From an uncultured virus (IMG/VR IMGVR_UViG_3300035429_000180) (Duplodnaviria; Heunggongvirae; Uroviricota; Caudoviricetes): 64,000 nucleotides of DNA. A program made the position numbers and the translations under genes. The notes beneath the pieces were generated by a model. The model did not search any database. It had not been told where the DNA came from and saw nothing but the letters and a program-made list of their open reading frames with translations. Shown one piece after another: positions 2,388 through 41,568 of this stretch; positions within the stretch are counted from its first letter, which is position 1; every line of letters starts with the position of its first letter. The DNA lies in IMG/VR virus record IMGVR_UViG_3300035429_000180. One strand, written 5' to 3'.

Positions 2388-2885
2388 ATGGGCGTATTAG
2401 GCGGCGCAATCGGCGCAGGTTTAGGAGCTGTCGGGAGTATTTTCGGCGGCATATCTGCATCTAAAGCCATGAAACGTATTAAAAAGAATTTGCAGGAGCA
2501 GAGGCGCAAAAATCAGGATTGGTATGATCGACGCTATAATGAAGACGCAACCCAGAGGGCCGATGCACAGGCAATCCTGACGAGGACCGAGGAGTCTATT
2601 CGTAACCGCAACAAACAAGCTGCCGGTGTTCAGGCTGTCATGGGCGGCACAGAAGAAAGCGTAGCAGCGGCGAAAGCGGCCAACAACGAGGCTCTTGCTA
2701 CTGCAACTACCAACATCGCTGTCAACGGCGAGGCTCGAAAGGATGCTATTGAGAGTCAATATCAACAAAACGACGCGAACATTCAGCAAGCACTCAACGA
2801 CCTTGAGCAGAAGAAAGCGGCCAATATATCACAGGCCATTCAGGGCGTGACACAGGCTGGTGCTAACATCGCGGGAATACTTTAA
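2388..2885 (+). CDS. Putative ejection/DNA-transfer (pilot-like) virion protein
   Basis: Gly/Ala-rich hydrophobic N-terminus followed by Gln/Ala-rich coiled coil; first gene of the operon with the giant protein. Confidence 0.6.
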   Translation: MGVLGGAIGAGLGAVGSIFGGISASKAMKRIKKNLQEQRRKNQDWYDRRYNEDATQRADAQAILTRTEESIRNRNKQAAGVQAVMGGTEESVAAAKAANNEALATATTNIAVNGEARKDAIESQYQQNDANIQQALNDLEQKKAANISQAIQGVTQAGANIAGIL

Positions 2886-16000: not shown

Positions 16001-19000
16001 CAACACCGAGGCGACTACGAATTGCGCGTACCGAAGTCGAAGCAGCGCGGCGGCATCTATACAATGCACCCTGACTTATTGAAGCTCGTAGACGGCCACA
16101 ACTTTATTACCAAAGGCAACAATATGATAGCGTATGTCGCCGAGGCTGATATTGCCAAAGTGGTTGATATGTTGAGCCGTGCGCCGTTCAATCTAACCGT
16201 TGTAGAAGAATCGAAGCTGACTGATGTTTCTGCCGATGAAGCGGAAGACGATGTAGCCGAACAGGAGCGTCAGCGAATGGGTGACGGCTACGGCGCATAT
16301 ACAGATGCTGAGATTTCATACTTCAATGATCCTATGTCAAAAGCTCTCGGTAAAAACCGTTTCAGCAAGAAACGTCAGGCCGAGTTTGCCGCCCGTGAAC
16401 GTCAGCGCATGGTGACCCGTATTCAGGAACTTGTTGAGCGTATGCACCTTGACAATGTGGAAATTGTTACCGACGCTTCACAACTTGATGGCAAACGAGC
16501 CAAAGCAAAGGGCTTCTATAACAAGCGCACAGGCAAAATCACCATCGTAATCCCGAATAATGTCAGCACCATAGACGCAGAACAGACTCTACTCCATGAA
16601 GCTGTTGCTCATTATGGCCTACGTCAACTTTTCGGAGAGCACTTTAATACATTCCTGGATAATGTATATCAGTCAGCCGACGAGAGCATACGACGTAAAA
16701 TAGCAGAGATGGCAGCTAAAAATGGTTGGGATTTCCGCACTGCAACCGAAGAATATCTTGCCGGCCTCGCTGAAGACACAAGTTTCAGCGAAGCTCAGAA
16801 TTATACCGGATGGTGGTCAAAGATCAAACGCCTATTCCTTGATATGCTTGATAAGATTGGTTTTGAGGGCTTCCGTGATAAGGTGGGTGTTGTATTGACC
16901 GATAATGAGCTTCGATACATCTTGTGGCGCAGCTATCAAAACCTTGCAAGACCGGACCGCTATCGCAGCATATTAGGAGAAGCCGCAGATGTAGTCAAAC
17001 AGTCGGAACTGAAAGTAGGCAACTATGCTGAGCAAAGTATTGAGGCCGAGTATGCCGCAGAGGGAGACCTTTACCGTCCAGGCGACTTCTCGCCCCGCGA
17101 CCGAGTGTTTGCCCGCTATGCCTACGAAAGCATGGTGAGAAGTGGCAGCTATCAATTCAAGGAAGCCGTGCAAGACAGTATGCTTGGCTTAAAGGCACTC
17201 TATCAGGCTATCCTCGGAAAGAAAACCCGACTTGAAGATGTGGCCGGATTTGAGAATGCCTATTTGTTCGAGAACCGCATGAGCAGTATGAACGCCGGAG
17301 AGCAGCACGAATATTTCCAACGCTATATGCAGCCGCTCTTGAAAGAGATTGGCTGCATTGCCGGTGCAAATGAGCGTAAGCGCAGAGAGTTGACCGACTA
17401 CATCATGGCAAAGCACGGCCTTGAGCGCAACGAGTATATGCGTAATGAGGCCACAGCTAATGGTGAGGACTCTGATCGTGATTTTGCCGGTCTTATTGGG
17501 CTGACAGGCGAAGCCGATTGGCAGAGCGCAGAGGACACCGCACGGCAGTGGGTTGACGATTACGAATCCATGTATGACACCACATCACTGTGGGAAGCTA
17601 TCAACAAGGCGACAAAGGCCACACTTGAAAAGGTATATCTTTCAGGTATCATCAGCAAGGAAACTTACGAGAAGATACTTGGAATGTATGACTACTATGT
17701 GCCACTACGCGGTTGGGACGAGACCACGAGCGACGAGGTATATGGTTACCTGACGAGTAAAGACGGTCCTCTTGGCGGCAGCATCATGAAAAAGGCAGAA
17801 GGACGTGAGAGCATGGCCGACGATCCTATTGCCACAATAGGCATGATGGCCGACGACGCAATCCGTCAGGGCAACCGCAACCTTATGAAGCAGCGTTTTC
17901 TCAACTTCATACTGAACCACCCCAGCGACGCAGTAAGTGTGCATGACCTATGGCTCGAATACAACGACGTAACCGACGAGTGGGTGCCTGTCTTTGCAGA
18001 TATTGAAGAAACCGATACCGCCGACGTTGTAGAGCAAAAGGTTAAGGACTTCGAGGAACGCTTGGAAGCATTACGCACCTCCGACCCTGACAAGTATAAG
18101 AAAGGTCGTGAGGCACAGCATATACCATATAAGGTTGTGCGTGGCAATCTTCGTGAACATCAGATACTCATCAAGCGCAATGGCCGTACATTTGTCGCTA
18201 CCATTAACGGCAATCCGAGAGCGGCACAGGCAATCAACGGCCTAACCAATCCCGATGTTGATCAGAACGGCGTTGTCGGCAATATGCTGAAAGCCGGTAC
18301 ATGGATCAACCGTCAGTTATCGGCATTCTACACCACACGAAACCCGGACTTCGTTGTGGGCAACTTCTTCCGCGATATGTTATACTCCACCTGTATGACA
18401 TGGGTAAAGGAAAGCCCACGATACGCCCGACGCTTCCACAAGAATTTTGCTCGTGTCAACCCGATTGTCATGCGCCGTCTTCTCGGTAAGTGGGAGAATG
18501 GAACACTCAACATGGGTAACCGTCTTGAGAGCCTTTTCTATCAGTTTATGAAGAACGGCGGCGAGACCGGCTACACCAATGTCCGCGACATAGAGGGCCA
18601 CAAGAGAGCTGTAGCCTCAGAGCTGAAGAAAATATCTCGTAGGGATATTGGGCATAAAACTTGGTTCTGGCTTGGTCAACAGTTAGATTTACTCAACCGC
18701 TCCGCCGAGAACTGCGCCCGCTTCGCCGCTTTCGTTACCTCTCGCGACTTTGGCCGAAACATCGACCGAGCAATCTACGACGCAAAGGAGATTAGTGTCA
18801 ACTTCAACAAGAAAGGCAGCGGCGGCAAAATGGTGAACGCTACCGGCCAAACCAAACTCGGCAAGACAGGCTCATATCTTAGCGGCGGTGGCCGTATCTT
18901 GTATGTGTTCTGGAATGCCGGTGTTCAAGGCATGACCAACTTCGGCCGACAGGCTAAATTGCATCCGGCAAAATTCTCCGTCGGTGCTACCGCTCTGTTC

Positions 19001-20105: not shown

Positions 20106-22079
20106 ATGGCAAAGGATAAACTACATAGAATGAGTCGTGTCCGTCCTCGTGAGATTGAGGACATGGACACCGTTGCCACATCAAAACGGCGAGGCGACCG
20201 GCGAGCGTTTGACGTGTTGATGGAAGCACAGCACCATTGGAACAATATGGACCAATTCCGTCGTGATCGCCAGCGTAACAAACGTTATTGCTACGGTGAC
20301 CAATGGAAAGATATTATTGAGGTGGATGGTTGCACAATAACTGAAGAAGAATATATCGGGAAGCAGGGCAATGTTCCACTGAAGAATAACCTAATACGTC
20401 GCCTTGTGCGCAATGTATTAGGCGTATATCGAAGTCAGGCCAAGGAGCCGACATGTTATGCACGAGACCGCGATGAGCAGAAACTTGGTGAGACCATGAC
20501 TACAATCTTACAGTGCAATATGCAGTTAAACCGCATGACCGAGGTTTACGCTCGCACAATGGAAGAATTTTTGATTGGCGGTCTCATCGTACATAGGAAG
20601 TCTTACAGTTGGCGAAACGAAAAAATGGACTGTTGGACTGATTATGTCAACCCCAACAATTTCTTTATCGACAACAATATGCGCGACTTCCGAGGTTGGG
20701 ATGTATCTTTCCTCGGCGAAGTACATGACGTTTCCTTTGAAACGCTGTGTGCGCAGTTTGCAGAGTCACCCGATGATTACCGACGCTTCAAGGAGATATA
20801 CACTTTCGCCCACAATAAGCAGTATATCGCCAACTATGCAGAACGTTTTGGATATTCGCGTCTTGAAAACTTCGACTTCCTGTTTACGAGCGACCCGACA
20901 CGTTGCAGGGTGATTGAGGTATGGCGCAAGGAAGCCAAGCCTCGCTACCGCTGTCACGATCTCAACAACGGCGACGTTTACAAAATTGACGTTGAAGATT
21001 ACGATGAAATGGTTAGCCACGTCAACAAAGAGCGTCTTATGCGAGGACGCGCTGCTGGTATGCCAGATGATGAAATACCTCTGATCCAAGCTACATGGAT
21101 GATTGACCACTATTGGTACTATTATTACCTTACACCGTTCGGTCATATTCTGAAAGAGGGAGAAACACCCTACGAGCATAAGAGCCACCCTTATGTGTTT
21201 AAGGCATATCCATTTATTGATGGGGAGATACACAGCTTTGTGTCCGATGTGATAGACCAACAGCGATATACCAACCGCCTGATAACTCTCTACGACTTCA
21301 TCATGCGAGCAAGCGCAAAAGGTGTACTACTCTTTCCAGAGGGGTGTGAGCCGGACAGTATGAGCATGGATGATATTGCCGAGGAGTGGGGCAAGTTTGA
21401 CGGCATTGTGTACTACAAGCCTAAGCCTGGTGTTGCCGTGCCTCAACAGATAGCCAACAACTCGACACAAATCGGCATCACTGAATTGCTGAACCTGCAA
21501 CTGAAATTCTTTGAGGACATATCTGGCGTAAACGGAGCTCTGCAGGGCAAGCCAGGCTATGCTAATCAAAGTGCCGCACTCTACAATCAGCAGACTCAGA
21601 ATGCCACGACATCGTTGCTTGATTTGCTCGACAGTTTCAGCTACTTTGTCAAGGACGGCGCGATTAAGGACGTGAAGAATATGCAACAATTCTATGACAC
21701 CAAACGCATATTCAATATCGTTGGCAAAAATGCGTGGGTTGAGTATGACCCCAAGACAATACGCGACGTTGACTTTGACCTCTCTATTGTCGAAAGCACA
21801 AATACGCCGGCATTCCGACAAATGGCCAACGACATACTCATGCAGTTGTGGCAAGCACAGGCAATATCGGTGGAGCAACTTCTGGAACACGGAGACTTCC
21901 CGTTTGCCGACGACCTGTTGCAGTCTATCCGCAGTCAAAAGGAACAGCTCGAACAGGGGCAAGTACCCGAAGCTATGTCGCCGCAGTTGCAGCAACAAGT
22001 TCAGGCTGGAGCCAATATGCAGAATGTTCAGGCCGCACGTCAAATGCTGATGAACCCGCAGTCACAAATGGCAGCATAA
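20106..22079 (+). CDS. Portal protein (P22/podovirus-like)
   Basis: 657 aa; 'YCYGDQW..NNLIRRLV', 'HPYVFKAYPFIDG..VIDQQR..NRL', 'EDISGVN.ALQG', Gln-rich barrel tail; adjacent to terminase and capsid genes. Confidence 0.8.
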   Translation: MAKDKLHRMSRVRPREIEDMDTVATSKRRGDRRAFDVLMEAQHHWNNMDQFRRDRQRNKRYCYGDQWKDIIEVDGCTITEEEYIGKQGNVPLKNNLIRRLVRNVLGVYRSQAKEPTCYARDRDEQKLGETMTTILQCNMQLNRMTEVYARTMEEFLIGGLIVHRKSYSWRNEKMDCWTDYVNPNNFFIDNNMRDFRGWDVSFLGEVHDVSFETLCAQFAESPDDYRRFKEIYTFAHNKQYIANYAERFGYSRLENFDFLFTSDPTRCRVIEVWRKEAKPRYRCHDLNNGDVYKIDVEDYDEMVSHVNKERLMRGRAAGMPDDEIPLIQATWMIDHYWYYYYLTPFGHILKEGETPYEHKSHPYVFKAYPFIDGEIHSFVSDVIDQQRYTNRLITLYDFIMRASAKGVLLFPEGCEPDSMSMDDIAEEWGKFDGIVYYKPKPGVAVPQQIANNSTQIGITELLNLQLKFFEDISGVNGALQGKPGYANQSAALYNQQTQNATTSLLDLLDSFSYFVKDGAIKDVKNMQQFYDTKRIFNIVGKNAWVEYDPKTIRDVDFDLSIVESTNTPAFRQMANDILMQLWQAQAISVEQLLEHGDFPFADDLLQSIRSQKEQLEQGQVPEAMSPQLQQQVQAGANMQNVQAARQMLMNPQSQMAA

Positions 22080-22086
22080 CTACAAC

Positions 22087-22119
22087 GAGGGCGAGTGACC
22101 ATTACGGAAACTCGCCCTC
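22087..22119. terminator. Hairpin between convergent portal and terminase units
   Basis: GAGGGCGAGT...ACTCGCCCTC stem followed by a T-rich tract. Confidence 0.65.
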
Positions 22120-22339
22120 TGTTTATTTTCCAAATGCTTCTTTTGGAACGCCTGTTGCATCTAATATTGTTCGCTTCACTTCTTCTATACCTTTGACTGC
22201 GTCTTTAAACGACCGTTCAAACTCATCGAGAACTTGACCGCTTTGTTCATGCCGAAGATTATCTATCGCAACAGTATCGTGCGTGAGCGTAGCAATACCC
22301 TGTAAGTCGTGACCGCTTTGTGGGCCATGATAGCCGACA

Positions 22340-22750
22340 TTATACTTTCTGCGCATTTTCCCAATCTTTTTTACGACGCTGTTCTTCCTTACGACGCTGT
22401 TCTTCTTTGCGGCGTTGTTTTGTTGCAATACGGTCGGCTTTGACCCATGCGAAGTATTGCATGACTTTCTTCTTCCGGTCAGCAGGAGCGAGGAACTGAT
22501 TGCCGTCGCGGTAGCTGGTGCAGTAGAAGCACTCACGCACGAGGTCGAAGACACGAGCTTCGCGCTGAATGTAGTGCTTCATCTTGAGGCGACGGAAATT
22601 GTAGCGATCCATCACGACGAGTTTCTTACCGCCACTGCCATGCTGAGGCATGACGTAGTAGCGTTTGCCTGTTTGCTGATGAGCCTTGTCGGCCATCTTG
22701 ATAGCCTCGCGGAGCCGGAGGCTTGCTTTAAATCTTCTAAAGATGTTCAT
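22340..22750 (-). CDS. Hypothetical basic phage protein
   Basis: 136-aa ORF directly downstream of terminase; C-terminal 18-bp (RRKEEQ) duplication. Confidence 0.7.
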   Translation of the reverse strand: MNIFRRFKASLRLREAIKMADKAHQQTGKRYYVMPQHGSGGKKLVVMDRYNFRRLKMKHYIQREARVFDLVRECFYCTSYRDGNQFLAPADRKKKVMQYFAWVKADRIATKQRRKEEQRRKEEQRRKKDWENAQKV

Positions 22751-22768
22751 ATCGTTTAGTGTGAGTTA

Positions 22769-24877
22769 TTAGAATGTAGCTGCGGAAATAGGTTTCCGAC
22801 GGCCACGGTTGTATTTCTTTTGAATAGGTATAATCTTCGGCACGTCCATTTCATAATAGCAGATGTGCAGCCCGATTGCTCGTGTCATCAACAAGTCGTC
22901 ATGTTTGCCGACGATAGCACCGAAAGAGCCGTTTTTGCGCTTCTCGTAAAAGATGTATTCAGCAAGACAACGCTCGTCGCGCTCGACATACATAGCTTCT
23001 CGGATAACCTTAACGAGCGTTGAGATAATCATCGGCTTGGTTGAAATGTTTGTATGGAAGCCGTAGCGTTTGGGCGCACCCTCTACAATCGCTTCTTCGG
23101 GTTGCTTGCGCTCGTAAAGATTAGGATAAACTTCCTTAACTTGGTTGAGAATAAACTGCGATTGGTCACCGTCAACGTCACGTTCCTTGTCGTGCGTTTC
23201 AAGCGTATTACTCTCGATAACGAGCAGAGAATTATCGTAGTAGGCTGCAATCTGGGCGGCTTTCCATGCCAAGAGGTCAATATCAATATGGCCGTACCAT
23301 TGAGCTACAACAACAGGCTTGCCGCCCTCTGCCATGAACAGGCGGTCGAAGACAGCAATAACAGACCAGTCGGCCTTATGTGAGCGACCGCCGACATCGA
23401 CAACTGTAAGGTATCGGTCAGTAACTCTTTCTTCGGGGTCAATTTCAGGATGCGCCCACACCCACAACAAACCCTGCCGGTCCTCGCGGAAGCGTAGGTT
23501 TTGTAGAGCCTTTTTGCCCTCGTCGAAGTCGGCATATACATCGCCAACTTGTAAGGGTGGTTTACAAGTTGCTTTCAAAGCCTCGACACGATACTTGTCA
23601 AACACACGAGTGCCGGAGTGAACAAACGCCTCAACATCATCGGAAGGATACTCCGAAGCCATAATAGCATGTTCATTTGACTTGGCACGTTCACGTATAT
23701 ACCAATTTATAGCTTCGAGCGTCGCGCCTTTCTCCCATAGCCACCAAAGATAGCGGCCACATTCTTCACGCTCCGACTCTGCATTGCCATTCTCCCGGTT
23801 GTCATACAGCCACTGTGCGAAATCTATTCTCTGGCCGTCGTTGTCAAAGTCAAGAGAATATTGCTCAATATCAAACCACGACACAAACATAGCCTCGAAT
23901 TGAGATTTGCCTTTCTTAGCAGCATCATATTCAATCTGAAAGAAGTTGCCTGTGCCATTTGCAGTAGATTCATATATAATCATTGTGTATGGTTTGTAAA
24001 GCACCCCTGAACAGGCCGAACGCACAATATCTTCAGGAGATTTCTTTTCGGTTTTTTCCCATATACCTACCTCGGAACAGTGAACAAGATTATAGTCGCC
24101 ACCACGACAAGAATCAGGATTTTTCGCAGTACCAATCTTGATTTTACAGTTACGCTGTGGTACAGCATGTATAAGACCAGACATACCGACACCTACAAGT
24201 TTTGGCTCGTTGTCGTCATATTCAGCACCTAATTTGTAGAGCATTTCCACAGGGTAACGGTCAAGCATGCGATTGAACATATCGCGTATTTCGTCTGACC
24301 CGGATGTCTGGTGTGCGATAATAAGCGAGTTGAGACCGATCCGGTGGACGAGTTGCAACCACGCCATATACAACTGCGACGTTGTAGAGCCGCCCCACTG
24401 ACGTGCTTTCAACAGGATAAGGCGAATAGGCTTATTGGCAAGACGCTTTTCCTCAAGTCGCTCAACAAAATGACGCTGTGGCCTGGTAAGGCGAAATAGA
24501 ACGTCCTCGCCACCACCTTTCTTCTTAATCCATACATAGGTTGCCGCCCAAAACGGAAAGTCGTGGCGAGAGCGTAGGCGCACAAACTGTTCGATTACTT
24601 TTAGTCGATCAGCTTCAAAATCTTCCTCGCAATCATACTCCATGCCAAGAGTGTCACATAAAAAATTCTCCAAACTACCGGCTTCGATTAACTGACGGAT
24701 TAACGGAATTTTATCCATTGACTCCGGCAAGTATTGACGTTTGATTGGAAAATCTTCCAACCAAAACTCAAAACGCTTGCCTACTGAGCCTCGCCCGGTA
24801 ATAGGATTGAAAGGAGCATGAATTTCATCTAACCTCTCCTGATTGATTTTGAGAATTTCTGCTATTTCCTGTTGCAT
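22769..24877 (-). CDS. terL: Terminase large subunit
   Basis: ILLKARQWGGST Walker A, NLVHCSE Walker B-like, IYESTANG coupling motif, DVGG and HDDLLM nuclease motifs; start set at MQQEIAE. Confidence 0.9.
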   Translation of the reverse strand: MQQEIAEILKINQERLDEIHAPFNPITGRGSVGKRFEFWLEDFPIKRQYLPESMDKIPLIRQLIEAGSLENFLCDTLGMEYDCEEDFEADRLKVIEQFVRLRSRHDFPFWAATYVWIKKKGGGEDVLFRLTRPQRHFVERLEEKRLANKPIRLILLKARQWGGSTTSQLYMAWLQLVHRIGLNSLIIAHQTSGSDEIRDMFNRMLDRYPVEMLYKLGAEYDDNEPKLVGVGMSGLIHAVPQRNCKIKIGTAKNPDSCRGGDYNLVHCSEVGIWEKTEKKSPEDIVRSACSGVLYKPYTMIIYESTANGTGNFFQIEYDAAKKGKSQFEAMFVSWFDIEQYSLDFDNDGQRIDFAQWLYDNRENGNAESEREECGRYLWWLWEKGATLEAINWYIRERAKSNEHAIMASEYPSDDVEAFVHSGTRVFDKYRVEALKATCKPPLQVGDVYADFDEGKKALQNLRFREDRQGLLWVWAHPEIDPEERVTDRYLTVVDVGGRSHKADWSVIAVFDRLFMAEGGKPVVVAQWYGHIDIDLLAWKAAQIAAYYDNSLLVIESNTLETHDKERDVDGDQSQFILNQVKEVYPNLYERKQPEEAIVEGAPKRYGFHTNISTKPMIISTLVKVIREAMYVERDERCLAEYIFYEKRKNGSFGAIVGKHDDLLMTRAIGLHICYYEMDVPKIIPIQKKYNRGRRKPISAATF

Positions 24878-25359
24878 GGTATCGGCATATTCAAGAAACC
24901 GACCAGCAGTCCGGCTACATAACTGTAAAGATGAAGCCACCCATTCACATGTGGGAATAGGAAACCGATAGCAATATACAGGGCCATATACCCATTATAA
25001 TATAGTTTTCTCTTCACTTGAAAAGCGATCATGCCAAGCAGAGCGAAGCATACAGCCGAAAGTCCCACTGTAGGTGTTATGGATAGAACAATGTCAGGAG
25101 CGGCCACAGCTATCATATAGGCTGTTATCAACCGCCACCACAAAACTTCGTAAATAAACAATATTGAAACGAAGCACCAAGCATTGACTGCCGCATGAAC
25201 AAACGAAGCGTGAAAGAAAGAGTACACAAGACGCTGTAAAATATTACAACCTTTAAATACTCCGATGACGTTCCAATCGGGCGCATATACCAGAGCCGAC
25301 AGCAATATGAATGCGACAATCAGCAGCCCCGTAGTCTTTTCGATTTTTCCAGAAACCAT
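24862..25359 (-). CDS. Rhomboid-family intramembrane serine protease
   Basis: Multi-TM; RLVYSFFHASFVHAAVN (H-x4-H-x3-N), VGLSA (catalytic GxS), WLHLYSYVAG (catalytic His). Confidence 0.8.
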   Translation of the reverse strand: MVSGKIEKTTGLLIVAFILLSALVYAPDWNVIGVFKGCNILQRLVYSFFHASFVHAAVNAWCFVSILFIYEVLWWRLITAYMIAVAAPDIVLSITPTVGLSAVCFALLGMIAFQVKRKLYYNGYMALYIAIGFLFPHVNGWLHLYSYVAGLLVGFLNMPIPCNRK

Positions 25360-25751
25360 TGTTTTCTTGCTTTTAGAATTAGTACACGAGCAGAACCTGG
25401 TGCCATATAGAATTTTGGTGCTGGTTGTGTGATGACCGCCTTAATAAGTCGAGGCATCGACCAATCGGAATAAGTATTACGCAACTCCAAAACACGACGA
25501 TGTATCTCGAAAAACATCTCACGTTTATTCGGCCTCATATAGTGGAGATTGTCACCTCGCATAATACTCGCCACTACGACTGTGGCGCGTGGAGCCGACA
25601 CCCAAAACCGCTCTGCCGGCATTTCCACTACACGCTTGAATACATCAGGCATAAAAACATGTTTGCAAGTTTTCATATAACAAAAATAGGCACGTAGCAA
25701 ATCACTCATCCTTTCCTTATGGTAGCAACTCTTACAGCCGAAATCTTTCAT
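25320..25751 (-). CDS. Hypothetical protein, possible DNA-binding/late regulator
   Basis: 143 aa from MKDFG; basic and helical with duplicated 'MPAERFWVS / QPAPKFYMA' motif; first gene of terminase operon. Confidence 0.6.
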   Translation of the reverse strand: MKDFGCKSCYHKERMSDLLRAYFCYMKTCKHVFMPDVFKRVVEMPAERFWVSAPRATVVVASIMRGDNLHYMRPNKREMFFEIHRRVLELRNTYSDWSMPRLIKAVITQPAPKFYMAPGSARVLILKARKQWFLEKSKRLRGC

Positions 25752-25809
25752 TGATTGGTCAAAAGCGATTAAATTTATTAGTAATACGTGCAAATTTAAT
25801 AAACAAGCG

Positions 25810-25852
25810 GTAAAAGATAAATAACTCACTAATGTTTTTAAGTGTATATTTG
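25810..25852 (+). promoter_or_regulatory. Scaffold/capsid promoter GTAAAAGATAAA-N23-TATATTTG
   Basis: -7 box with the shared upstream motif; a divergent -7 box (TAAATTTG) lies on the minus strand at 25791-25798. Confidence 0.65.
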
Positions 25853-25890
25853 CGGATAAAAATTAACAATCTCTTATATACAACAATGTT

Positions 25891-26679
25891 ATGGCTGAAA
25901 CCGAAGCAGTTAAAAGCAAACGTGATACGACGTTGGAACGACTGAGGGGCAAATACCCCGAAGAACAGTTCGACGACGACGAGCAGATATTTGGCCGAAT
26001 AAACGCCGATTACGACGAATACGACAATAAACTCGCAGGCTATCAGGAGCGCGAAGGCAAGTTTTCCGACATGTTCACGTCCGACCCCCGTTCAGCCCGG
26101 CTGATGATGGGCTGGAAAGACGGCGTCGACCCCGCAGTTGCGCTCATACGCCTGTATGGCGAAGACATCAAGGACGCAATCGACGACCCCGACAAGCAGG
26201 AAGCAATAGCCGAAGCCAACAAAGAGTACATGGAGCGCGTGGCCAAGGAGAAGCAGTATGAAGAAGAATATACCGCCAACCTCGCCGAGTCTTTGACCAT
26301 ACTTGAAAAAGCTCAGCAAGAACGTGGACTTAGTGACGAACAGATCGACGATGCTATGGCATGGTTTATCGGCGTAGCCAAAGACGCGATGATGGGCAAA
26401 TTCTCGCCTGAGACAATTGAAATGATAATCAAGGCACAGAACTACGACAACGACGTCGCACAAGCAGGAGAAGAAGGTGAAGTGCGTGGCAAGAATGCCA
26501 AAGTCACCGAGACGCTGCGCAAACCTAATCGCGGTGATGGCACCGCCCAACTTGACGGCAAGAATGGAGGTGGTCGCCGGAAGCCTATGCCAGATATGGG
26601 AGCAATTGACCGCTATGGAGACGGCAACATGAACATCTTCGAACGTGGCGGCGAAAAGCGTACTCCTATCAAAAGATAA
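25891..26679 (+). CDS. Putative capsid scaffolding protein
   Basis: Acidic helical 262-aa protein immediately upstream of the capsid gene. Confidence 0.6.
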   Translation: MAETEAVKSKRDTTLERLRGKYPEEQFDDDEQIFGRINADYDEYDNKLAGYQEREGKFSDMFTSDPRSARLMMGWKDGVDPAVALIRLYGEDIKDAIDDPDKQEAIAEANKEYMERVAKEKQYEEEYTANLAESLTILEKAQQERGLSDEQIDDAMAWFIGVAKDAMMGKFSPETIEMIIKAQNYDNDVAQAGEEGEVRGKNAKVTETLRKPNRGDGTAQLDGKNGGGRRKPMPDMGAIDRYGDGNMNIFERGGEKRTPIKR

Positions 26680-26718
26680 CTCAACCCAATATCAATAACC
26701 AATTTAACAACAATCTCA

Positions 26719-28161
26719 ATGGAAACAGTTAAAAAAACAACTCGTTTTCTGCTCAGTTTCATGCTGAGTATGATTGCCTTCGTAGCGGGGGCAAGTTCCG
26801 GGGTGTATATGGCCACAGCCAGCGATCTCCCCGATGCAGGTAAGACAAATGCCGGAGCAGACGGCACAGGTGGCACTGAAGGTATCGCTACAGAGACGCA
26901 GGGCCGCATGGATGGAGATCCGAACTTCTACATGCAGGACATAGACAAGCGTATCATCAAAATCCGTCCTATGGCAACGCCTATCGACCAGATTTCACGT
27001 TATGCCAAAGCCTCATCGTGCAAGTCTTTTGAAGTCAAATACTATAGTGTCGGCACCCGTCCTATCTCGTGCAAGACCAACAAGGCCGTGACAGCCCAGA
27101 CTTCCGGGGCATCTATTACTCTCCCTGTCGACGATCCTAATATGTTCACACTTGACGACACCATCCGCGTTGTCGGCGTTAAAGGTAAGTACAATGACAA
27201 GGGTGTGGCCTATCCTGAAGACAGCGACAACGTGCCTGATCTTGTACTGTGTGTGTGTGGCAAGAGCACAGACACCAATATGCCCACGGTATATGCAGTG
27301 AATGGAGACCTCGACAGCTCCACCAACTACGCAACCCTCGTTCCCGCCATTCCGAGCGGCACGACCCTCGTGCGTATGGGTAAAGCCTGTGGTGAGCTTG
27401 ACGTCCAGACCGGCCGTTTCAACAACATTCCTATGCCTGAAACGCAGTATTGCCAGAACTTCATGATTCAGGTTGAACAGTCTACCTTTGACAAGATTGC
27501 AGCCAAAGAAGTCAATTGGTCATTTTCCGACATAGAAGAGGACGGCATATATGATATGCGACTCTCCCAGGAGAACACATATCTGTTTGGCGTAAAAAAT
27601 GTGATCAAGCATGTAGCCAAAGAGGGCATGAACACTTGGTTTACCGGTGGTATCTGGTATATGGCCGGTAAGGACATTGAGGTAGGCGTATGGGATGATG
27701 AGGCAAAATGTGCTGTAATTACCGATGACAACCTTGTGGACATTACCAAAGACCTCTTTGTTGGTACAGGAATAGGCAATAAGCGCAAAATACTCTTCTG
27801 TGGCTCTGATATGCTGTCGGCATTCTCAAAAATCAAGAGCGAAAAGTTCCGCCTGAAAGACACCGTTGAAGTGTGGAACTTGAAATTCAAGTCGTGGGAT
27901 ACCGATTTCGGCGAAGTGCTGACTATCCATCATGAGCTTTTTGATGCAAATGGTATGAGTGACTATGGCTTCGCAATGGACCCCGAATATCTCTCAAAGA
28001 AGACTCATGTATCGTGGGCTCGCAACGTCCTCGACCTCAAGACCGCCGGTATCCGCAACACCGATGCTGTGGTAATTCAGGAAGTGGCCTGTCTCTATCT
28101 GCGCTACGCCAAGGCCCACGCGCGTATGCGTCTTGCTCAGCCTCCAACCGCCGCAGCATAA
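26719..28161 (+). CDS. Major capsid protein (putative) with hydrophobic N-terminal leader
   Basis: 480 aa; position after scaffold; 'ATPIDQI', 'QYCQNFMIQV', 'FTGGI', 'WDTDFGEV', 'E.ACL.L....AH' pattern of HK97-fold capsids; followed by terminator. Confidence 0.75.
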   Translation: METVKKTTRFLLSFMLSMIAFVAGASSGVYMATASDLPDAGKTNAGADGTGGTEGIATETQGRMDGDPNFYMQDIDKRIIKIRPMATPIDQISRYAKASSCKSFEVKYYSVGTRPISCKTNKAVTAQTSGASITLPVDDPNMFTLDDTIRVVGVKGKYNDKGVAYPEDSDNVPDLVLCVCGKSTDTNMPTVYAVNGDLDSSTNYATLVPAIPSGTTLVRMGKACGELDVQTGRFNNIPMPETQYCQNFMIQVEQSTFDKIAAKEVNWSFSDIEEDGIYDMRLSQENTYLFGVKNVIKHVAKEGMNTWFTGGIWYMAGKDIEVGVWDDEAKCAVITDDNLVDITKDLFVGTGIGNKRKILFCGSDMLSAFSKIKSEKFRLKDTVEVWNLKFKSWDTDFGEVLTIHHELFDANGMSDYGFAMDPEYLSKKTHVSWARNVLDLKTAGIRNTDAVVIQEVACLYLRYAKAHARMRLAQPPTAAA

Positions 28162-28194
28162 TCTATAAAAATAAGTAGTTTTTCTTCATGTGAG

Positions 28195-28231
28195 AGGGGT
28201 GGACGGTTAAACCCAACCGCCCGCCCCTTTT
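28195..28231 (+). terminator. Rho-independent terminator after capsid gene
   Basis: GGGGTGGACGGTT...AACCGCCCGCCCC-TTTT. Confidence 0.6.
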
Positions 28232-28250
28232 GCTTATCAAATCAGAAGCA

Positions 28251-29025
28251 ATGAAAAAGTACATCGCTAAAACCAATATCAGCATCAACATAGTGCTGAA
28301 GTCCGGGAAAAACCGTCATATCACTTTCAGCGCACTCACAGGCGGAGGAAGCGTATTCTACACTGATGATCCCGAAATCCAAAAGGCTATGGAGTGTCAC
28401 TACAAATTTGGCAAACTCTTCCGAGTAGACCAGAAATATGTGGCCGAAAAGCAGCGCAACAAACCAGCACCCAAGCCAAAGCCCGAAATCGTACCCGAAC
28501 AGCCGACCGTTTCCGCCGCTCCTATCCCTATCGGCGAGACACCAACGCCTACCGTAGAAGAAGCAGAAGACACTCCCNNNNNNNNNNNNNNNNNNNNNNN
28601 NNNNNNNNNNNNNNNNNNNNNNNNNNNNNNNNNNNNNNNNNNNNNNNNNNNNNNNNNNNNNNNNNNNNNNNNNNNNNGTCGGAGAAGCAGAAGACACTCC
28701 CGTCGGAGAAGCAGAAGACACTCCCGTCGGAGAAGCAGAAGACACTCCCGTCGGAGAAGCAGAAGACACTCCCGCCGGAGAAGCCACTGTCGCAGTTTCT
28801 GACAGCGAGCAAGCTACCGCAGAAGACATTGACAGCGACGGCCAGCCCGAAGAAGCCGAAGCCGAGGCCGAAGACAACGGTCTCAAAACAATCGTAGTTT
28901 CCGACCCTGACGCGGCCAAAGCATATCTCGCTGAACACTTCGGCATCAGCCGTACAAAAATCAAATCAGTAAAAGCTATCAAAGTGGCCGCTGCCGCCAA
29001 CGGCATCGTCTTCGAGGGCATCTAA
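28251..29025 (+). CDS. Hypothetical protein with acidic Pro/Glu tandem-repeat linker (spans assembly gap)
   Basis: Starts MKKYIAKT; after the N-gap the frame PVGEAEDT... ends in GIVFEGI*; the apparent frameshift is due to the arbitrary 100-N gap. Confidence 0.7.
28554..28784 (+). repeat. 24-bp tandem repeat GTCGGAGAAGCAGAAGACACTCCC (4 perfect copies 28678-28773, degenerate flanking copies, 100-N gap 28578-28677)
   Basis: Direct reading. Confidence 0.95.
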
Positions 29026-29036
29026 ACCACGTCGCC

Positions 29037-29672
29037 ATGATATACAAGTTAACCGAGATTGCGCGTGATGTTCGCATAGCCATAGACCAAAATATGACAA
29101 GCGAACAGTTGATAGCGGCCGAAGACATCGAAACTTTGTCGCTTGAAGACATCATACGCTCGAAAATCGCAGAGGCCGTGCGCCGTGTCGAAACTGCCGC
29201 TCCTGTTCACTTTCTGGAAGAGGGGCACAATTTCGGCGATGCAGTGTATTGGGGTGACCTTGAAAGCGGTTGGGTATTACTGCCAGACGATTTCATGCGC
29301 CTTATAGCATTTCGTATGAGCGATTGGGAGCGCACGGTTTATGCCGCAATCTCGGTTGATGATCCGCTGTACGCAAAACAATCTTCTCGCTACAAAGGCA
29401 TTCGCGGCAATGTTCAAAAGCCCGTGTGTGCAGTCGTGAACCGAGCTGAGGGCAAAGCACTCGAATTCTATTCATGCAACAGTGAAGATGCATACGTCAG
29501 CAGAGCTTCATACTTGCCTTATCCCTACATTGACGAAGACGATGGCATAGACATCAGCGAGAAATGCTATACAGCGGTAATCTACACCGTGGCGGCCTTA
29601 GTATTAACCACCTACGGCGAAGCTGACAAAGCGTCGGCTATGACCGAATTAGCTAAATCTATTTTTCAGTAA
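29037..29672 (+). CDS. Putative head-tail adaptor/ring protein
   Basis: 211 aa; 'LPDDFMRL' motif; position between capsid and tail genes. Confidence 0.55.
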   Translation: MIYKLTEIARDVRIAIDQNMTSEQLIAAEDIETLSLEDIIRSKIAEAVRRVETAAPVHFLEEGHNFGDAVYWGDLESGWVLLPDDFMRLIAFRMSDWERTVYAAISVDDPLYAKQSSRYKGIRGNVQKPVCAVVNRAEGKALEFYSCNSEDAYVSRASYLPYPYIDEDDGIDISEKCYTAVIYTVAALVLTTYGEADKASAMTELAKSIFQ

Positions 29673-32600
29673 TGAGTTCAATCCCAACAAAACAAATAGA
29701 TGGTGATGTTGCGGTAGGACGCAATGTCAACGTAGGCGGCAAAGCCTCTGTCCGTGGATCTGCCACTATCGACCATAACCTAAAAGTGAAAGGTTGGCTT
29801 GATGCCCCCAACATAAAAGGTCCGAATAAAGGACTATTCAAGACAGCGGTACTACTGCGTGAAGCATACCCCAACCCGCACGAAGGCTGGTGGGCGTTGG
29901 TTGGTGACACCCTGCCGGCGCAAGTCTATATGGGTATCGGCGGCACATGGGTTGCACAAACCAATGCCGACGGAACGCCCAAACTTGCGGGCAACCCCAC
30001 AGTTGACTCGTCGGAATATATGGAAGATGTTGAACGAATGACAGCCGACCTTGAAGCCGTTAAAGTCGATGTCAACCAAAACAAAGAAGATATCCGCAAC
30101 CTACGGTCCGGCCAGACCACACAAGGCAATCAAATAAATCTGCTGCAAACTGCCATAGAGAAGTCACAGTCTCAAGCTGATAAAGGTGTAACAGACGCGG
30201 CTAAAGCACAAGCTGGAGTAAACGCTATCACCAATAAGATCGGTGCAAACAATGGAATTGCACCACTTGATCCTTCTGGTCTTATCCCAACGCGCTATAT
30301 TCCTGGAGCGATGGATGATGTTAAAGAGTTTGCAAACATCATTGCATCAGCTCCTAATATTCTTGTGCAATCATACACAGGAGAAGGGTGTGTAGTATTC
30401 TGCTCGGCAACCAACAAATTCCTGTTTTCATCGGACACAGAGCCGGTTCAGTATTATAGCAACTGGCCTGAAGCCAACAGCTTTGGTGTAGAGACTATTG
30501 AGGGCCGTACTCCAGTCGCTGGTAAAATTTACGTTGACACAAGTACTAACAAACAGTATCGTTGGGGTGGTACGAAAATGGCAACAATAGGCTCTGATCT
30601 CGCTTTGGGTTATACACCCAATACAGCATTCCCCGGAGATGAGGGGGCACAAATTCAGAAAAATCTCACATCACTGACACAATCTGTAGAGAACAATACC
30701 AAGCATATTGAGTGTATAAGTATTTTGCCCTTTGATGGTATATGGAATGACTCAGAGAACGATCCGACATACGGGGTATGGATTGTAGCCAATAATGACG
30801 CCGGGATAATGTTTGAGAGCTATGGTTCTACAAATTTTTACGGTCTTGGTGAAGAAGCGTACAATGAGAGGGAAACCGGCACTTGGGCAAAGCGTGGTGT
30901 ATATCGTTGCAATAACAAGTTATACGAGGTTAACAGCACATGCACACAAATCATTTCGTTGACACAACTGAACAACGCCATTGACGAAGTTAAGAAACCT
31001 CGTACATTTATCAATGCCAATCAACTACTTGACTACACGGCCACATATACTATCGGCGAAGTTTCCAAACTTCTTGAATCGCAGTTTGGTAGAATATTCC
31101 ATATACCCGGAATAGTAATATCTTTCCGAGGCAAGAATGGATGGGAGAGCAAACAGTGGAATGGTGACGATGCTTTCACTGAAGACAGTGCATGGACCGA
31201 CTTTGGTGTGAACGGCAACAATATCGGCAACACCGTAAACGTAAACGACGTGTGCGGCGATACTGAATATACCCTCAGTACCGCGATCAAGGCCGTACAG
31301 GACAAAGAGATTGAGGGCGGCATCAAGTACTTCAAGAGCGGTGTTGTACTGACCTATAAGACCGCAGAAAAGGACAGCAAGGGCGCACCCGTATGGGAAG
31401 CCTATCAGTTCACCCGCGAAGTCGCAGACATCAATCCCGCCGACCTGAAGCCGTGGATACCTTTTGGCGGCGGTGGTAAGAGTGAAGTCGAAACCAAAGA
31501 TGACCCCGTTGCAGGCGGCAAGGATGCACTATCCACCGGGGGTGCATACAAGCACATCCCCATGAAGTATAGTGTAGTGCAAGAGGACGGCACTGTAACA
31601 ATACAGCCTATGAACGAGGCAGGGGAAGAAATCGGCGAATCCATAATTTTCTTCGCTTCTCAAGGTGGTGGCGGTGAAGTATCCGGCACAATCGTAAACA
31701 TCAAATTTCAGGAATCGCCGCTGTATGGTGCTGTCGGTAAAGACATCATCGGCCATGCCTGCATCCGTTCAGTAACGCAGTTAGGCTCGACCGAGCAGCT
31801 CAACTCTATCGTATCGTTGAAGCTCATCGACCGCGACACTAATGTGGTAATCCGCGAGTGGACGGTTAACACCCGCTCGTCTGACGAGGAAGAATACAAC
31901 TTTGACATTCCTTTCTCCGGCATGTTTGACGGCGCAGGGTCTCGTCGTTTCCGCCTTGAGGCTACCGACGACACCGATCACACCGGCTATCGTTTCATCA
32001 CAGTGACCGCCGTAGACGCAACAGTCGAGAGTACACAAGTGCTTAACTATACGTCAGACTATGTTATACCATATGGAAGTAATCGAGCCGTCAATGTACC
32101 TCTCTACAAATTTCCGCAGAACGTCAGCGAGAAAGGCATTCAGGCTTTTGTCGAAATTTGGTGGAATGGAGAATGGCGACCATTGACCGCCACACCGCCA
32201 ACCCACTTCGACGCATACAGCAGCAGTGCGCAGTTCAACCCTACCAACCTTTTCGGCGGCGGCGAGAAAATGCAGCACGGCGCATACCCTGTGCGCATAC
32301 ATGGCCGTGACGTTGCTTCGGGAGTAACCGGCAACACGATCTATACCGCTGTGATGTGTATCGATCCCAACAGCAGTGTGCCTGTCGTGGCTCTGCGCTA
32401 CAATGACACCGGCGACGGTACTGTGCGCCTCTATGACCGCGTGAGGGTCGAAGTCGCTGCATACAACCCCAATCCGCAGATGCTGACAACCAACGTCACC
32501 CTAAAAGCCGATGACCATGTACTTGGCCGTTACGAGCTTGGTGCAAACCAAATCGAGACAGCAGAAATGCAGGTATCAGGCTACCAGAGCGACGGCAGCG

Positions 32601-38049: not shown

Positions 38050-38131
38050 TCAATATCAGAGATAATTAATAGAAAGTTTAACGTAATACGTCTTGCGAAA
38101 GCGTAGACGAAAAAGGTAGAATGTCCCCCGA

Positions 38132-38242
38132 TGCCGTGTTGTTGGTCGTGCGAGCTACGGTACGAATGCGAATGGCGGTCTCGTTTATTCGAACGCGAAC
38201 AACGTTTCTTCGACTTCGAACACGAACAACGGCGCACGTCTC
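38132..38242 (+). ncRNA. DGR template repeat (TR)
   Basis: AAC/AAT-rich copy of both VRs directly upstream of the RT. Confidence 0.95.
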
Positions 38243-38262
38243 ACATTAAGCGCAAAATCAAA

Positions 38263-40559: not shown

Positions 40560-41042
40560 ATGACTATCGAACTCATCGCTATTTCTGTGTCGTGCCTTAT
40601 CATGACACTTTATCTGACTGCTTATATTAACACAGTTGGTATCCCGGCCTCGATCAGTGCCACATATTACAACACTGAAAAGAAATGGTTGTTTCCATCC
40701 ACTATAGCAACCACAGGATTGTGTGCCCTTATGCCGTTGTTGAACAATACGCCGGAGAGCTATCAGTTTGTCGCCTTCTTCATTGTTGCAGCAACACTAT
40801 TCGTTGCGAGTGCTCCCGCATTTCGCGATGACATGATAGGCAAAGTGCATGGAGTCTCCGCCGCCGTGCTTGGGATATGCGCTCTTGCTTGGCTCATTCT
40901 CACATCTGGCTGTCCTTGGTTGGCAATAGTTGGTATATGTGTAGCAATAATTGATATTAAACATTTTCTATTCTGGATTGAGGTAGGACTGTTATACAAC
41001 CTTTTTATAGATCTTATAAAAATTGTGGTTATGAACGGTTAA
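40560..41042 (+). CDS. Multi-pass membrane protein
   Basis: 4-5 hydrophobic segments. Confidence 0.7.
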   Translation: MTIELIAISVSCLIMTLYLTAYINTVGIPASISATYYNTEKKWLFPSTIATTGLCALMPLLNNTPESYQFVAFFIVAATLFVASAPAFRDDMIGKVHGVSAAVLGICALAWLILTSGCPWLAIVGICVAIIDIKHFLFWIEVGLLYNLFIDLIKIVVMNG

Positions 41043-41080
41043 AGTTAACTCACAAGTTTCGTTATAACGTCCTATCTTTG
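41038..41080 (+). promoter_or_regulatory. Lysis promoter GTTAAAGTTAAC-N23-TATCTTTG
   Basis: -7 box plus shared motif at the same spacing. Confidence 0.7.
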
Positions 41081-41102
41081 AACTCCAAAACATTATCATA
41101 AA

Positions 41103-41555: not shown

Positions 41556-41568
41556 AATAACTAAACCA

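What the first reader, a model, noticed from the sequence alone, without database searches (positions are those of the whole stretch)
24862..26830. Phage rhomboid protease plus a capsid protein with a membrane-anchor leader: candidate intramembrane head-maturation system
Seen: a compact 165-aa rhomboid with intact H-x4-H-x3-N, GxS and catalytic His motifs overlaps the terminase start in the packaging operon. The putative major capsid protein begins METVKKTTR-FLLSFMLSMIAFVAG-ASSG (basic n-region, ~15 hydrophobic residues, then small helix-breaking residues). I recognise no HK97/ClpP/S49-type prohead protease in the window. Known: rhomboids cut in or near TM helices destabilised by Gly/Ala/Ser, and HK97-fold capsid proteins normally lack signal-like leaders. 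Inference: capsid subunits may be tethered to the inner membrane for assembly and released by the rhomboid, a head-maturation route I do not know to be described. The Gly-rich hydrophobic N-terminus of 2388..2885 is an alternative substrate.
Basis: partly seen in the sequence, partly recalled or inferred. Interest (0 to 1): 0.82.

Follow-up and report, generated by a model that had tools for sequence, protein, structure and literature searches.

The report
Phage rhomboid tied to capsid leader
A gut Bacteroidales phage makes its head-shell protein with a secretion-signal-like front piece and carries its own membrane-embedded rhomboid protease; in related prophages the two are lost together again and again, which points to an undescribed, still untested membrane step in building a tailed-phage head.

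Summary
Window 24862-25359 (-) encodes a 165-aa, 6-helix rhomboid. His50, His55, Gly99, Ser101 and His143 are invariant in 27 phage homologues at 20-51% identity. It lies between a phrog_27246 gene and TerL. The SU10-type, HK97-fold capsid protein (26719-28161) starts with a basic and hydrophobic leader, then G-V-x-M-A-x-A. The leader is translated and conserved.

The phage rhomboid occurs only with leader-bearing capsid genes: 35 of 35 dereplicated rhomboid-positive head modules. In Prevotellaceae prophages, 17 of 17 genomes with a leader-bearing capsid gene have the phage rhomboid, and 0 of 13 with a leaderless one do. This joint state changes at least 4 times on the capsid tree, although the two genes lie 17-23 kb apart. 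In one sister pair the rhomboid ORF alone is excised.

Three points count against the reading:
- 61 of 96 leader-bearing representatives lack a phage rhomboid, including 4 complete genomes.
- The leader's predicted orientation (N-terminus inside) is not the usual rhomboid-substrate orientation.
- Cleavage has never been shown, and signal peptidase I fits the A-x-A site equally well.

This scan noted the same pairing before on other genomes. I found no paper that describes it.

The parts
24862..25359 (-). Phage rhomboid intramembrane serine protease, 165 aa, 6 TM helices. Key residues: His50/His55/Asn59 (25183-25212), Gly99-Leu-Ser101 (25057-25065), His143 (24931-24933).
25320..25751 (-). phrog_27246 protein ('X', 143 aa from the ATG), function unknown. 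It is always the gene just upstream of the rhomboid, and it is kept in prophages that have lost the rhomboid.
22769..24877 (-). Large terminase subunit (702 aa from the ATG at 24877; an alternative GTG lies at 24940). Its start overlaps the rhomboid stop.
25891..26679 (+). phrog_22323 protein, 262 aa, acidic. Putative scaffolding protein, inferred only from its position directly upstream of the capsid gene.
26719..28161 (+). Major capsid protein precursor, 480 aa, SU10_MCP family. The HK97 fold is modelled from residue 68.
26719..26820 (+). Capsid leader, residues 1-34. It has a basic n-region (K5, K6, R9), a hydrophobic stretch (10-24), G-A-S-S, then G28-V-Y-M-A32-T-A34 (26800-26820), which is the conserved candidate cleavage motif.
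26821..26919 (+). Gly/Asp/Thr-rich linker, residues 35-67, modelled as disordered. Leaderless relatives start at or just before its L-P-D-A-G motif.
20106..22079 (+). P22-type portal protein of the same head module.

Best explanation
The 165-aa protein is an active rhomboid protease whose dedicated job concerns the N-terminal leader of the phage's own major capsid protein.

Shown:
- The enzyme keeps its rhomboid fold and its catalytic Ser and His over deep divergence.
- It sits in the late packaging operon.
- The capsid protein is made with a conserved leader that looks like a Sec signal: basic, then hydrophobic, then G-V-x-M-A-x-A.
- Leader and rhomboid are genetically coupled in relatives.

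Inferred:
- The leader takes newly made capsid protein to the inner membrane.
- The rhomboid cuts at or next to the conserved motif. Val at P4, Ala at P1 and Ala at P2' fit the published rhomboid recognition rule.
- Mature protein, starting near S35 and the L-P-D-A-G motif, then joins scaffold-assisted assembly in the cytoplasm.

How a site exposed at the periplasmic face yields a cytoplasmic product is not explained. One possibility, purely speculative, is that leader and flexible linker insert as a loop and the linker slips back after the cut. Lineages with a leader but no phage rhomboid would use a host enzyme.
For: Enzyme. H50, H55, G99, S101 and H143 are invariant in 27 homologues at 20-51% identity. 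The fold matches GlpG. The gene overlaps both neighbours in the X-rhomboid-TerL operon. In 31 of 35 rhomboid-positive representatives it lies on the TerL strand within 150 nt.

Leader. It is present in 105 of 122 full-length family representatives. Ala32 is at least 90% conserved in 42 capsid proteins at 27-57% identity. In 68 distinct rhomboid-linked leaders the motif columns read G 67, V 57, M 57, A 63 and A 59. PMC2941825 (passages read) states that P1 tolerates only small residues, P4 requires large hydrophobic ones and P2' prefers hydrophobic ones.

Coupling.
- Among 106 dereplicated head modules, all 35 with a rhomboid have a leader, and 0 of 10 leaderless ones have a rhomboid.
- In Prevotellaceae prophage genomes, 17 of 17 with a leader carry a phage-type rhomboid (E <= 1e-25), against 0 of 13 leaderless ones.
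- The joint state changes at least 4 times on a careful capsid tree of 32 rows, and 5 times on a quick tree of 39 rows.
- There are 3 independent pairs on supported branches, 4 on all branches. The 3 scored are all concordant.
- The AU test rejects a single leaderless clade, p 1.5e-9.
- In these prophages the genes lie 17-23 kb apart.
- In the sister pair L307/L305, 522 nt holding the rhomboid ORF are replaced by 110 nt between flanks that are 71-82% identical.
- X is kept with no rhomboid after it in 4 of 4 further informative leaderless loci.

The hosts have their own rhomboids of about 300 aa, so the phage copy does not fill a host gap.
Against: No cleavage has been observed in any member, and no virion N-terminus is known.

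Topology. By the positive-inside rule (my reading of the sequences) the rhomboid is N-in and C-in, with Ser101 at the periplasmic face. The leader is N-in. Known bacterial substrates are N-out (type I or III; PMC2941825). A cut at the outer face would not by itself free a cytoplasmic domain.

Distribution. 61 of 96 leader-bearing representatives have no phage rhomboid. Whole-record searches confirmed this in 10 of 10 such viral contigs, 4 of them rated 100% complete. It also held in 21 of 21 further Bacteroidota genomes, 19 with leader-bearing and 2 with leaderless capsid genes.

Other weaknesses:
- A-x-A is also the classic signal peptidase I site.
- Too few independent events exist for a significant sign test (p 0.25). 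Across the whole family only 3 rhomboid changes were counted.
- The absences are in MAGs, which are incomplete.
- The AU group was named after I had seen a tree.
- The Prevotellaceae leaders are only weakly hydrophobic (1.5-1.8 on my scale).
Confidence: 0.55

Rival explanations
1. Host signal peptidase I removes the leader at A-x-A. The phage rhomboid only clears the many left-over leader peptides from the membrane, or otherwise relieves the membrane load they cause, in the manner of a signal-peptide peptidase.
For: A32 and A34 form a conserved A-x-A (63 and 59 of 68 leaders). Leader-bearing phages without any phage rhomboid are common (61 of 96 representatives), so another enzyme must be able to handle leaders. 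Joint loss of leader and rhomboid is explained equally well by this model.
Against: Signal peptidase I acts on translocated chains (recalled), so the same topological problem applies. N-in leader peptides are not the usual rhomboid substrates (PMC2941825). In bacteria this clearance role is known for other protease families (recalled), not for rhomboids.
Confidence: 0.2
2. The rhomboid's substrate is something else: a host membrane protein, or another phage membrane protein such as the T7 gp14-like protein at 2388-2885 or a lysis protein. Its association with the leader would then be indirect.
For: The protein at 2388-2885 has a Gly-rich N-terminal hydrophobic segment followed by basic residues. 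This is the N-out arrangement of known substrates such as TatA. It weakly matches T7_gp14 (E 7.4e-5, 23.2 bits, below the 27-bit cut-off). Many leader-bearing phages manage without a phage rhomboid.
Against: This model does not explain why the rhomboid disappears each time the leader does, at a locus 17-23 kb away, while its neighbour X stays. I did not test whether gp14-like genes vary with the rhomboid.
Confidence: 0.15
3. The leader is not a membrane element and is never cut. It would be a hydrophobic N-terminal helix acting inside the procapsid, like a small delta or scaffold-binding domain.
For: AF2 models residues 2-23 as a helix joined to the fold by a disordered linker. No conventional maturation protease is present.
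Against: Leaderless relatives start right at the linker, so the leader is dispensable for the shell. The layout of basic n-region, hydrophobic core and A-x-A is that of a secretion signal. Its presence also tracks a membrane protease.
Confidence: 0.1

Closest known systems
Bacterial rhomboid proteases GlpG (E. coli, H. influenzae) and Providencia AarA with its substrate TatA
   Same: Six-helix fold. The TM2 His/His/Asn, TM4 Gly-x-Ser and TM6 His are all present. The candidate site has a small P1 and hydrophobic P4 and P2', as in the TatA motif (PMC2941825).
   Different: The phage enzymes are much shorter (147-193 aa), have a very short L1 region and no extra domains, and are phage-encoded inside a head/packaging operon. 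The candidate substrate is predicted N-in, whereas TatA-type substrates are N-out. The window protein itself scores just under Pfam's cut-off.
Filamentous-phage procoat (M13 pVIII) and host leader peptidase
   Same: A phage coat protein made with a cleavable N-terminal leader and handled at the inner membrane (recalled; PMC10480500 seen only as a search listing).
   Different: M13 assembles and extrudes at the membrane, and its coat is a small helix. Here the protein is a 480-aa HK97-fold shell protein of a DNA-packaging tailed phage, which must end up in the cytoplasm, and the phage brings its own intramembrane protease.
Prohead maturation proteases of tailed phages (HK97 gp4, T4 gp21, ClpP/S49-type)
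   Same: A virus-encoded protease in the head gene module that would trim the N-terminus of the capsid precursor.
   Different: Those are soluble enzymes packed inside the prohead, and they cut after assembly (recalled). None is detectable here or in 13 relatives. A membrane-embedded rhomboid could only act before, or at the start of, assembly.
Hepatitis C virus core protein released by signal peptide peptidase
   Different: The HCV protease is a host aspartyl enzyme and the anchor is C-terminal on a eukaryotic ER membrane. Here the enzyme is a viral serine rhomboid and the leader is N-terminal.
Rhombosortase with GlyGly-CTERM proteins
   Same: A dedicated rhomboid paired with a recognisable sorting tag made of a small-residue motif, a hydrophobic helix and basic residues (abstracts of PMC3237569 and PMC6219818).
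   Different: That tag is C-terminal and N-out. The capsid leader has the mirror order (basic, hydrophobic, Gly/Ser-rich) at the N-terminus.

Membership tests
Rhomboid proteases (Pfam PF01694) | Core of six transmembrane helices with the GlpG fold | tested here: met
   AF2 model: pLDDT 89.7, six long helices. Foldseek ranks 1-38 are all GlpG or iRhom, TM-score 0.56-0.71 on the query.
Rhomboid proteases (Pfam PF01694) | TM4 Gly-x-Ser with the catalytic serine | tested here: met
   G99-L-S101. Gly and Ser are invariant in 36 close homologues and 27 diverse ones. HMMER aligns this motif to the GlpG G-L-S-G.
Rhomboid proteases (Pfam PF01694) | TM6 catalytic histidine | tested here: met
   H143 is invariant. 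One caveat: HMMER's pairwise alignment places the GlpG His opposite Y147, one helical turn later. I could not measure the Ser-His distance in the model.
Rhomboid proteases (Pfam PF01694) | TM2 His-x4-His-x3-Asn | tested here: met
   H50 and H55 are invariant, and N59 is at least 90% conserved (one homologue has Asp).
Rhomboid proteases (Pfam PF01694) | L1 loop with the Trp-Arg motif | tested here: inconclusive
   The region between TM1 and TM2 is only about 18 residues. R43 is invariant and W29 nearly so among close homologues, but they are not adjacent and are not kept in the diverse set.
Rhomboid proteases (Pfam PF01694) | Score above Pfam's gathering threshold | tested here: not met
   21.9 bits against a cut-off of 22.6 for the window protein. 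Many close homologues carry a precomputed PF01694 hit, and the family profile reaches GlpG at E 2.4e-6.
Rhomboid proteases (Pfam PF01694) | Proteolytic activity | not testable with these tools
   Inferred only from conservation of the catalytic residues.
Canonical bacterial rhomboid substrate (TatA-type) | Recognition motif: small P1, hydrophobic P4 and P2' | tested here: met
   For G-V-x-M-A|x-A in 68 leaders: Val at P4 in 57, Ala at P1 in 63, Ala at P2' in 59. The rule comes from PMC2941825. Val and Ala are smaller than the 'large' residue preferred at P4.
Canonical bacterial rhomboid substrate (TatA-type) | Single-pass with the N-terminus outside (type I or III) | tested here: not met
   The n-region carries 2-5 Lys/Arg and the flank after the helix is acidic. 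The positive-inside rule therefore predicts N-in. This is a hand reading; no topology predictor was available. PMC2941825 allows that a type II protein with a motif beyond the helix could loop back.
Sec-type cleavable signal peptide | Basic n-region, hydrophobic h-region, c-region with small residues at -3 and -1 | tested here: met
   K5, K6 and R9; residues 10-24; A32-T-A34. The total length of about 34 residues is long for a Gram-negative signal (recalled). No SignalP-type predictor was available.
Sec-type cleavable signal peptide | The protein is exported | not testable with these tools
   Export would contradict its role as the shell of a DNA-packaging phage. This is the central unexplained point.
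SU10-type HK97-fold major capsid proteins (PF17236) | Family profile match and HK97 fold | tested here: met
   99.8 bits against a cut-off of 24.1. The model matches the VP1, crAss001, SU10 and HK97 capsids.
Prohead proteases (HK97 gp4-type, ClpP/S49-type, T4 gp21-type) | A recognisable peptidase domain in the head module | tested here: not met
   No such Pfam family at E <= 0.001 in the window or in 133 ORFs of 13 rhomboid-less relatives.

The most novel reading that the evidence does not exclude
A large family of Bacteroidota tailed phages builds its HK97-fold head through a membrane-bound precursor. The capsid protein would be sent to the inner membrane by a Sec-type leader and set free by a dedicated phage rhomboid, or by a host enzyme in lineages without one. 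That would make intramembrane proteolysis a checkpoint of head assembly. It might serve to time assembly, or to keep free capsid protein away from cytoplasmic immune sensors.
Probability: 0.35. Interest if true: 0.9.

Novelty: new variant of a known kind. Interest (0 to 1): 0.8.

Why it matters
Tailed-phage capsid proteins are thought of as soluble cytoplasmic proteins. Rhomboid proteases have few known bacterial substrates, and I found no described viral member. A 2025 review of the superfamily has no occurrence of 'phage' or 'virus' in its main text (PMC12615303), and the searches found nothing relevant.

Here a natural genetic experiment, repeated at least four times, ties a virus-encoded rhomboid to a defined 34-residue tag on a defined protein. 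That gives rhomboid biology a ready enzyme-substrate candidate, and it gives phage biology a testable claim that head assembly can include a membrane step.

The phages concerned are widespread in gut samples: 408 matching viral contigs, and BS-TP4 was found in 31.3% of 930 viromes (PMC12694917). Three cultured Bacteroides phages carry the pair, so the tests can be done now.

Tried and rejected
- Complex prediction of the rhomboid with capsid residues 1-75: no verdict, score 0.00, controls not run. It is evidence neither way.
- The window's own genome is not held, so I made no whole-genome look-up for the window.
- Megablast of 22000-30000 against the phage collection found nothing. Only protein searches reached relatives.
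- First co-occurrence counts. They called a locus rhomboid-negative if nothing lay within 10 kb. This was wrong for Prevotellaceae prophages, where the gene lies 17-23 kb away. I replaced them with a TerL-in-locus rule and whole-genome searches.
- L064 looked like a natural rhomboid knockout beside a BS-TP4-type capsid gene. Its contig also lacks TerL, so it is uninformative.
- Looking for another multi-pass membrane protein in rhomboid-less, leader-bearing loci. I saw only antisense or low-complexity ORFs and isolated 4-5-helix ORFs 6-7 kb from the capsid gene in three loci, not examined further.
- Family-wide independent-pairs test: only 3 rhomboid changes, 1 concordant and 2 with no change in the leader. 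It is uninformative.
- Comparing motif columns between rhomboid-positive and rhomboid-negative leaders: the same G-hydrophobic-x-hydrophobic-A pattern in both, no discriminating feature.
- A zincin-type H-E-x-x-H motif that I thought I saw in the giant protein is not there.
- Sequence search of the PDB with the capsid protein gave only the VP1 capsid, aligned from residue 206. No solved relative says anything about the N-terminus.

Full report
**What the window is.** The 64-kb window is essentially a whole temperate phage. It holds:
- an integrase fragment (1-1476) and an S24 repressor (61575-62267);
- a T7 gp14-like protein (2388-2885);
- a 5319-aa polyvalent protein (4064-20023);
- a P22-type portal (20106-22079);
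- a leftward operon of TerL (22769-24877), the rhomboid (24862-25359) and a phrog_27246 gene that I call X (25320-25751);
- a rightward operon of a putative scaffold (25891-26679) and an SU10-type capsid protein (26719-28161);
- a 2781-aa tail protein with a diversity-generating retroelement, and a lysis cassette.

Its cultured relatives are Bacteroides phages BS-TP4, BKO1-TP3 and BF1-TP2. All three have the same X-rhomboid-TerL and scaffold-capsid layout. Source names on close rhomboid homologues point to Muribaculaceae and Barnesiella hosts.

**The rhomboid is real and looks active.**
- Pfam Rhomboid matches residues 44-156 but falls 0.7 bits short of the cut-off.
- A profile of 36 homologues reaches H. 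influenzae GlpG at E 2.4e-6.
- The AF2 model is confident (pLDDT 89.7), and its Foldseek ranks 1 to 38 are all GlpG or iRhom structures.
- I collected 27 phage homologues at 20-51% identity, 147-193 aa long. His50, His55, Gly99, Ser101 and His143 are the only invariant columns, and Asn59 is nearly invariant. This is the pattern expected of an enzyme kept for catalysis.
- One blemish: HMMER's pairwise alignment puts the GlpG histidine opposite Tyr147 rather than His143. An ungapped reading, H-x2-S-x3-G for GlpG's H-x2-G-x3-G, fits His143. I could not measure distances in the model.
- Counting Lys and Arg in the loops (sequences) puts the N-terminus, the TM4-TM5 loop and the C-terminus inside. 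That is the usual GlpG orientation, with the active site open to the periplasm.

**The capsid leader is real.**
- Residues 1-34 read: basic n-region, hydrophobic stretch 10-24, G-A-S-S, then G-V-Y-M-A-T-A.
- The capsid model has a helix at 2-23, a disordered Gly/Asp/Thr linker at 26-67 and an HK97 fold from residue 68. The V. cholerae phage VP1 capsid is its best solved match.
- The leader is not an artefact of an over-long ORF. In 88 close sources there are 48 distinct N-terminal strings, and all keep the frame and the layout.
- Of the best 150 of 688 family representatives, 122 are full length, and 105 of those begin with such a leader, down to about 29% identity.
- Ala32 is among the few columns conserved at 90% or more across 42 capsid proteins.
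- The motif G-V-x-M-A-x-A fits the published rhomboid rule of small P1 and hydrophobic P4 and P2' (PMC2941825, passages read). A-x-A is also the classic signal peptidase I site. The sequence alone cannot say which enzyme cuts.

**Do the two go together?**

Close relatives are uninformative. 78 of 80 loci have both. The two misses are a locus with under 2 kb of upstream flank and a contig that also lacks TerL.

I therefore fetched distant head modules. I scored only sources that also hold TerL, which left 269 of 342. I dropped 63 without TerL, 6 with the capsid gene at a contig edge, and 4 with a short capsid ORF. After dereplication to 106 capsid representatives the counts are:

| Leader | Rhomboid present | Rhomboid absent |
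|---|---|---|
| strong | 34 | 61 |
| weak | 1 | 0 |
| none | 0 | 10 |

So the rhomboid implies a leader (35 of 35), but a leader does not imply a phage rhomboid (35 of 96).

The absences are real:
- Whole-record searches found no rhomboid in 10 of 10 such viral contigs, 4 of them rated complete.
- The same search found it in 5 of 5 positive controls that were not used to build the model.
- 21 further Bacteroidota genomes, mostly Rikenellaceae, hold only weak host-type matches. 19 of them have leader-bearing prophage capsid genes and 2 have leaderless ones.
- No other peptidase family appears in 133 ORFs from 13 rhomboid-less modules.
- On the family-wide tree the rhomboid changes state only 3 times, so this table alone proves little.

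**The informative case is a clade of Prevotellaceae prophages close to the window's capsid type.** There the rhomboid, still directly after X, lies 17-23 kb from the capsid gene.
- Genomes whose capsid gene has a leader carry a phage-type rhomboid (E 1e-25 to 1e-31) in 17 of 17 cases.
- Genomes whose capsid gene starts at or after the L-P-D-A-G motif, with a stop codon a few residues upstream, carry it in 0 of 13 cases.
- Three loci with an unresolved N-terminus were set aside.
- Nearly all of these genomes also hold a host-type rhomboid of about 300 aa.
- On a careful tree of the capsid cores (32 rows; two truncated genes left out) the joint state changes at least 4 times. Three independent pairs on supported branches are all concordant. 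The AU test rejects one leaderless clade at p 1.5e-9. A quick tree with all 39 rows gives 5 changes.
- In the sister pair L307/L305, DNA alignment shows 522 nt containing the rhomboid ORF replaced by 110 nt between conserved flanks, and X is retained.
- In 4 of 4 further informative leaderless loci, X is present and nothing rhomboid-like follows it. A fifth locus is cut by a contig end.

Two unlinked deletions recurring together are hard to explain unless the rhomboid is useful only when the leader is present.

Caveats:
- Three or four events cannot give a significant sign test (p 0.25).
- MAGs are incomplete.
- I named the AU group after seeing a tree.
- Recombination could distort the capsid tree.

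**Mechanism.** The most economical reading is that the leader is the rhomboid's substrate (confidence 0.55). Whether the enzyme detaches the leader from the precursor, or disposes of leader peptides left by signal peptidase I (rival, 0.2), cannot be told from sequence.

Either way the topology is unexplained. An N-in leader exposes its motif at the periplasmic face, where both enzymes work, yet the shell protein must stay in the cytoplasm. PMC2941825 restricts its substrate prediction to N-out proteins. [quoted passage not shown] The flexible G-A-S-S spacer and the 35-residue disordered linker would permit a loop-insertion and slip-back scheme, but that is speculation.

Lineages with a leader and no phage rhomboid presumably use host enzymes. 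I did not test whether it varies with the rhomboid.

**Known or new.** Full-text searches for phage or viral rhomboids, for DUF5309 capsids, and for capsid leaders with signal peptidase found nothing relevant. The paper describing the three Bacteroides phages does not mention the rhomboid (0 occurrences). A 2025 rhomboid review has no occurrence of 'phage' or 'virus' in its main text. GenBank annotators labelled the gene 'rhomboid' in two records and 'glycoside hydrolase' in one.

Earlier reports of this scan noted the same pairing on other genomes.

Noticed in passing
window 37857-37977 and 38130-38250; ORF 38131-40035: A 121-nt direct repeat at 92% identity. One copy sits at the 3' end of the 2781-aa tail-protein gene and the other next to a reverse-transcriptase ORF (Pfam RVT_1). 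This looks like the variable and template repeats of a diversity-generating retroelement, as reported for BS-TP4 gp14 (PMC12694917).
   Followed up: partly
window 4064-20023: A 5319-aa polyvalent protein with InPase, ddrB-ParB, Strawberry-notch-type helicase (AAA_34 plus Helicase_C_4) and LPD38 domains. It follows a T7 gp14-like gene and a 387-aa ORF, so it is probably an ejected internal virion protein. The BKO1-TP3 homologue is annotated DarB-like.
   Followed up: partly
window 28578-28677: A run of 100 N (assembly gap) lies inside the ORF at 28230-28802 (phrog_23743), within a short peptide-repeat region. The true length of that gene is therefore unknown.
   Followed up: no
window 40560-42222: A likely lysis cassette: two small multi-pass membrane proteins (160 and 150 aa, no Pfam hit) followed by an Amidase_3 endolysin. 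These are other membrane proteins that I did not test as rhomboid substrates.
   Followed up: no
L348 7276-8183, L354 13837-14912, L351 11600-12064: In Prevotellaceae prophages the X-rhomboid pair sits apart from the capsid gene and in either orientation relative to its neighbours. X (phrog_27246-like) stays when the rhomboid is lost, so X is not part of the leader-linked function.
   Followed up: partly
G045:C67:199344-199862 and G038:C111:7000-7518: Two phage-type rhomboid matches in leader-bearing Prevotella prophage genomes are reported with one in-frame stop (TAG, TGA). They could be decaying copies or stops just outside the gene.
   Followed up: no
L108-L117, L166, L177: Some distant capsid leaders are much longer. 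They have a second hydrophobic or amphipathic stretch, or an N-terminal extension, before the conserved G-hydrophobic-x-hydrophobic-A motif, and none has a phage rhomboid nearby.
   Followed up: no
PQ571269.1 (L002 8001-8519): The rhomboid homologue of Bacteroides phage BKO1-TP3 is annotated 'glycoside hydrolase', and the TerL genes of all three isolates are annotated 'tail spike protein'. These look like annotation errors in the public records.
   Followed up: no
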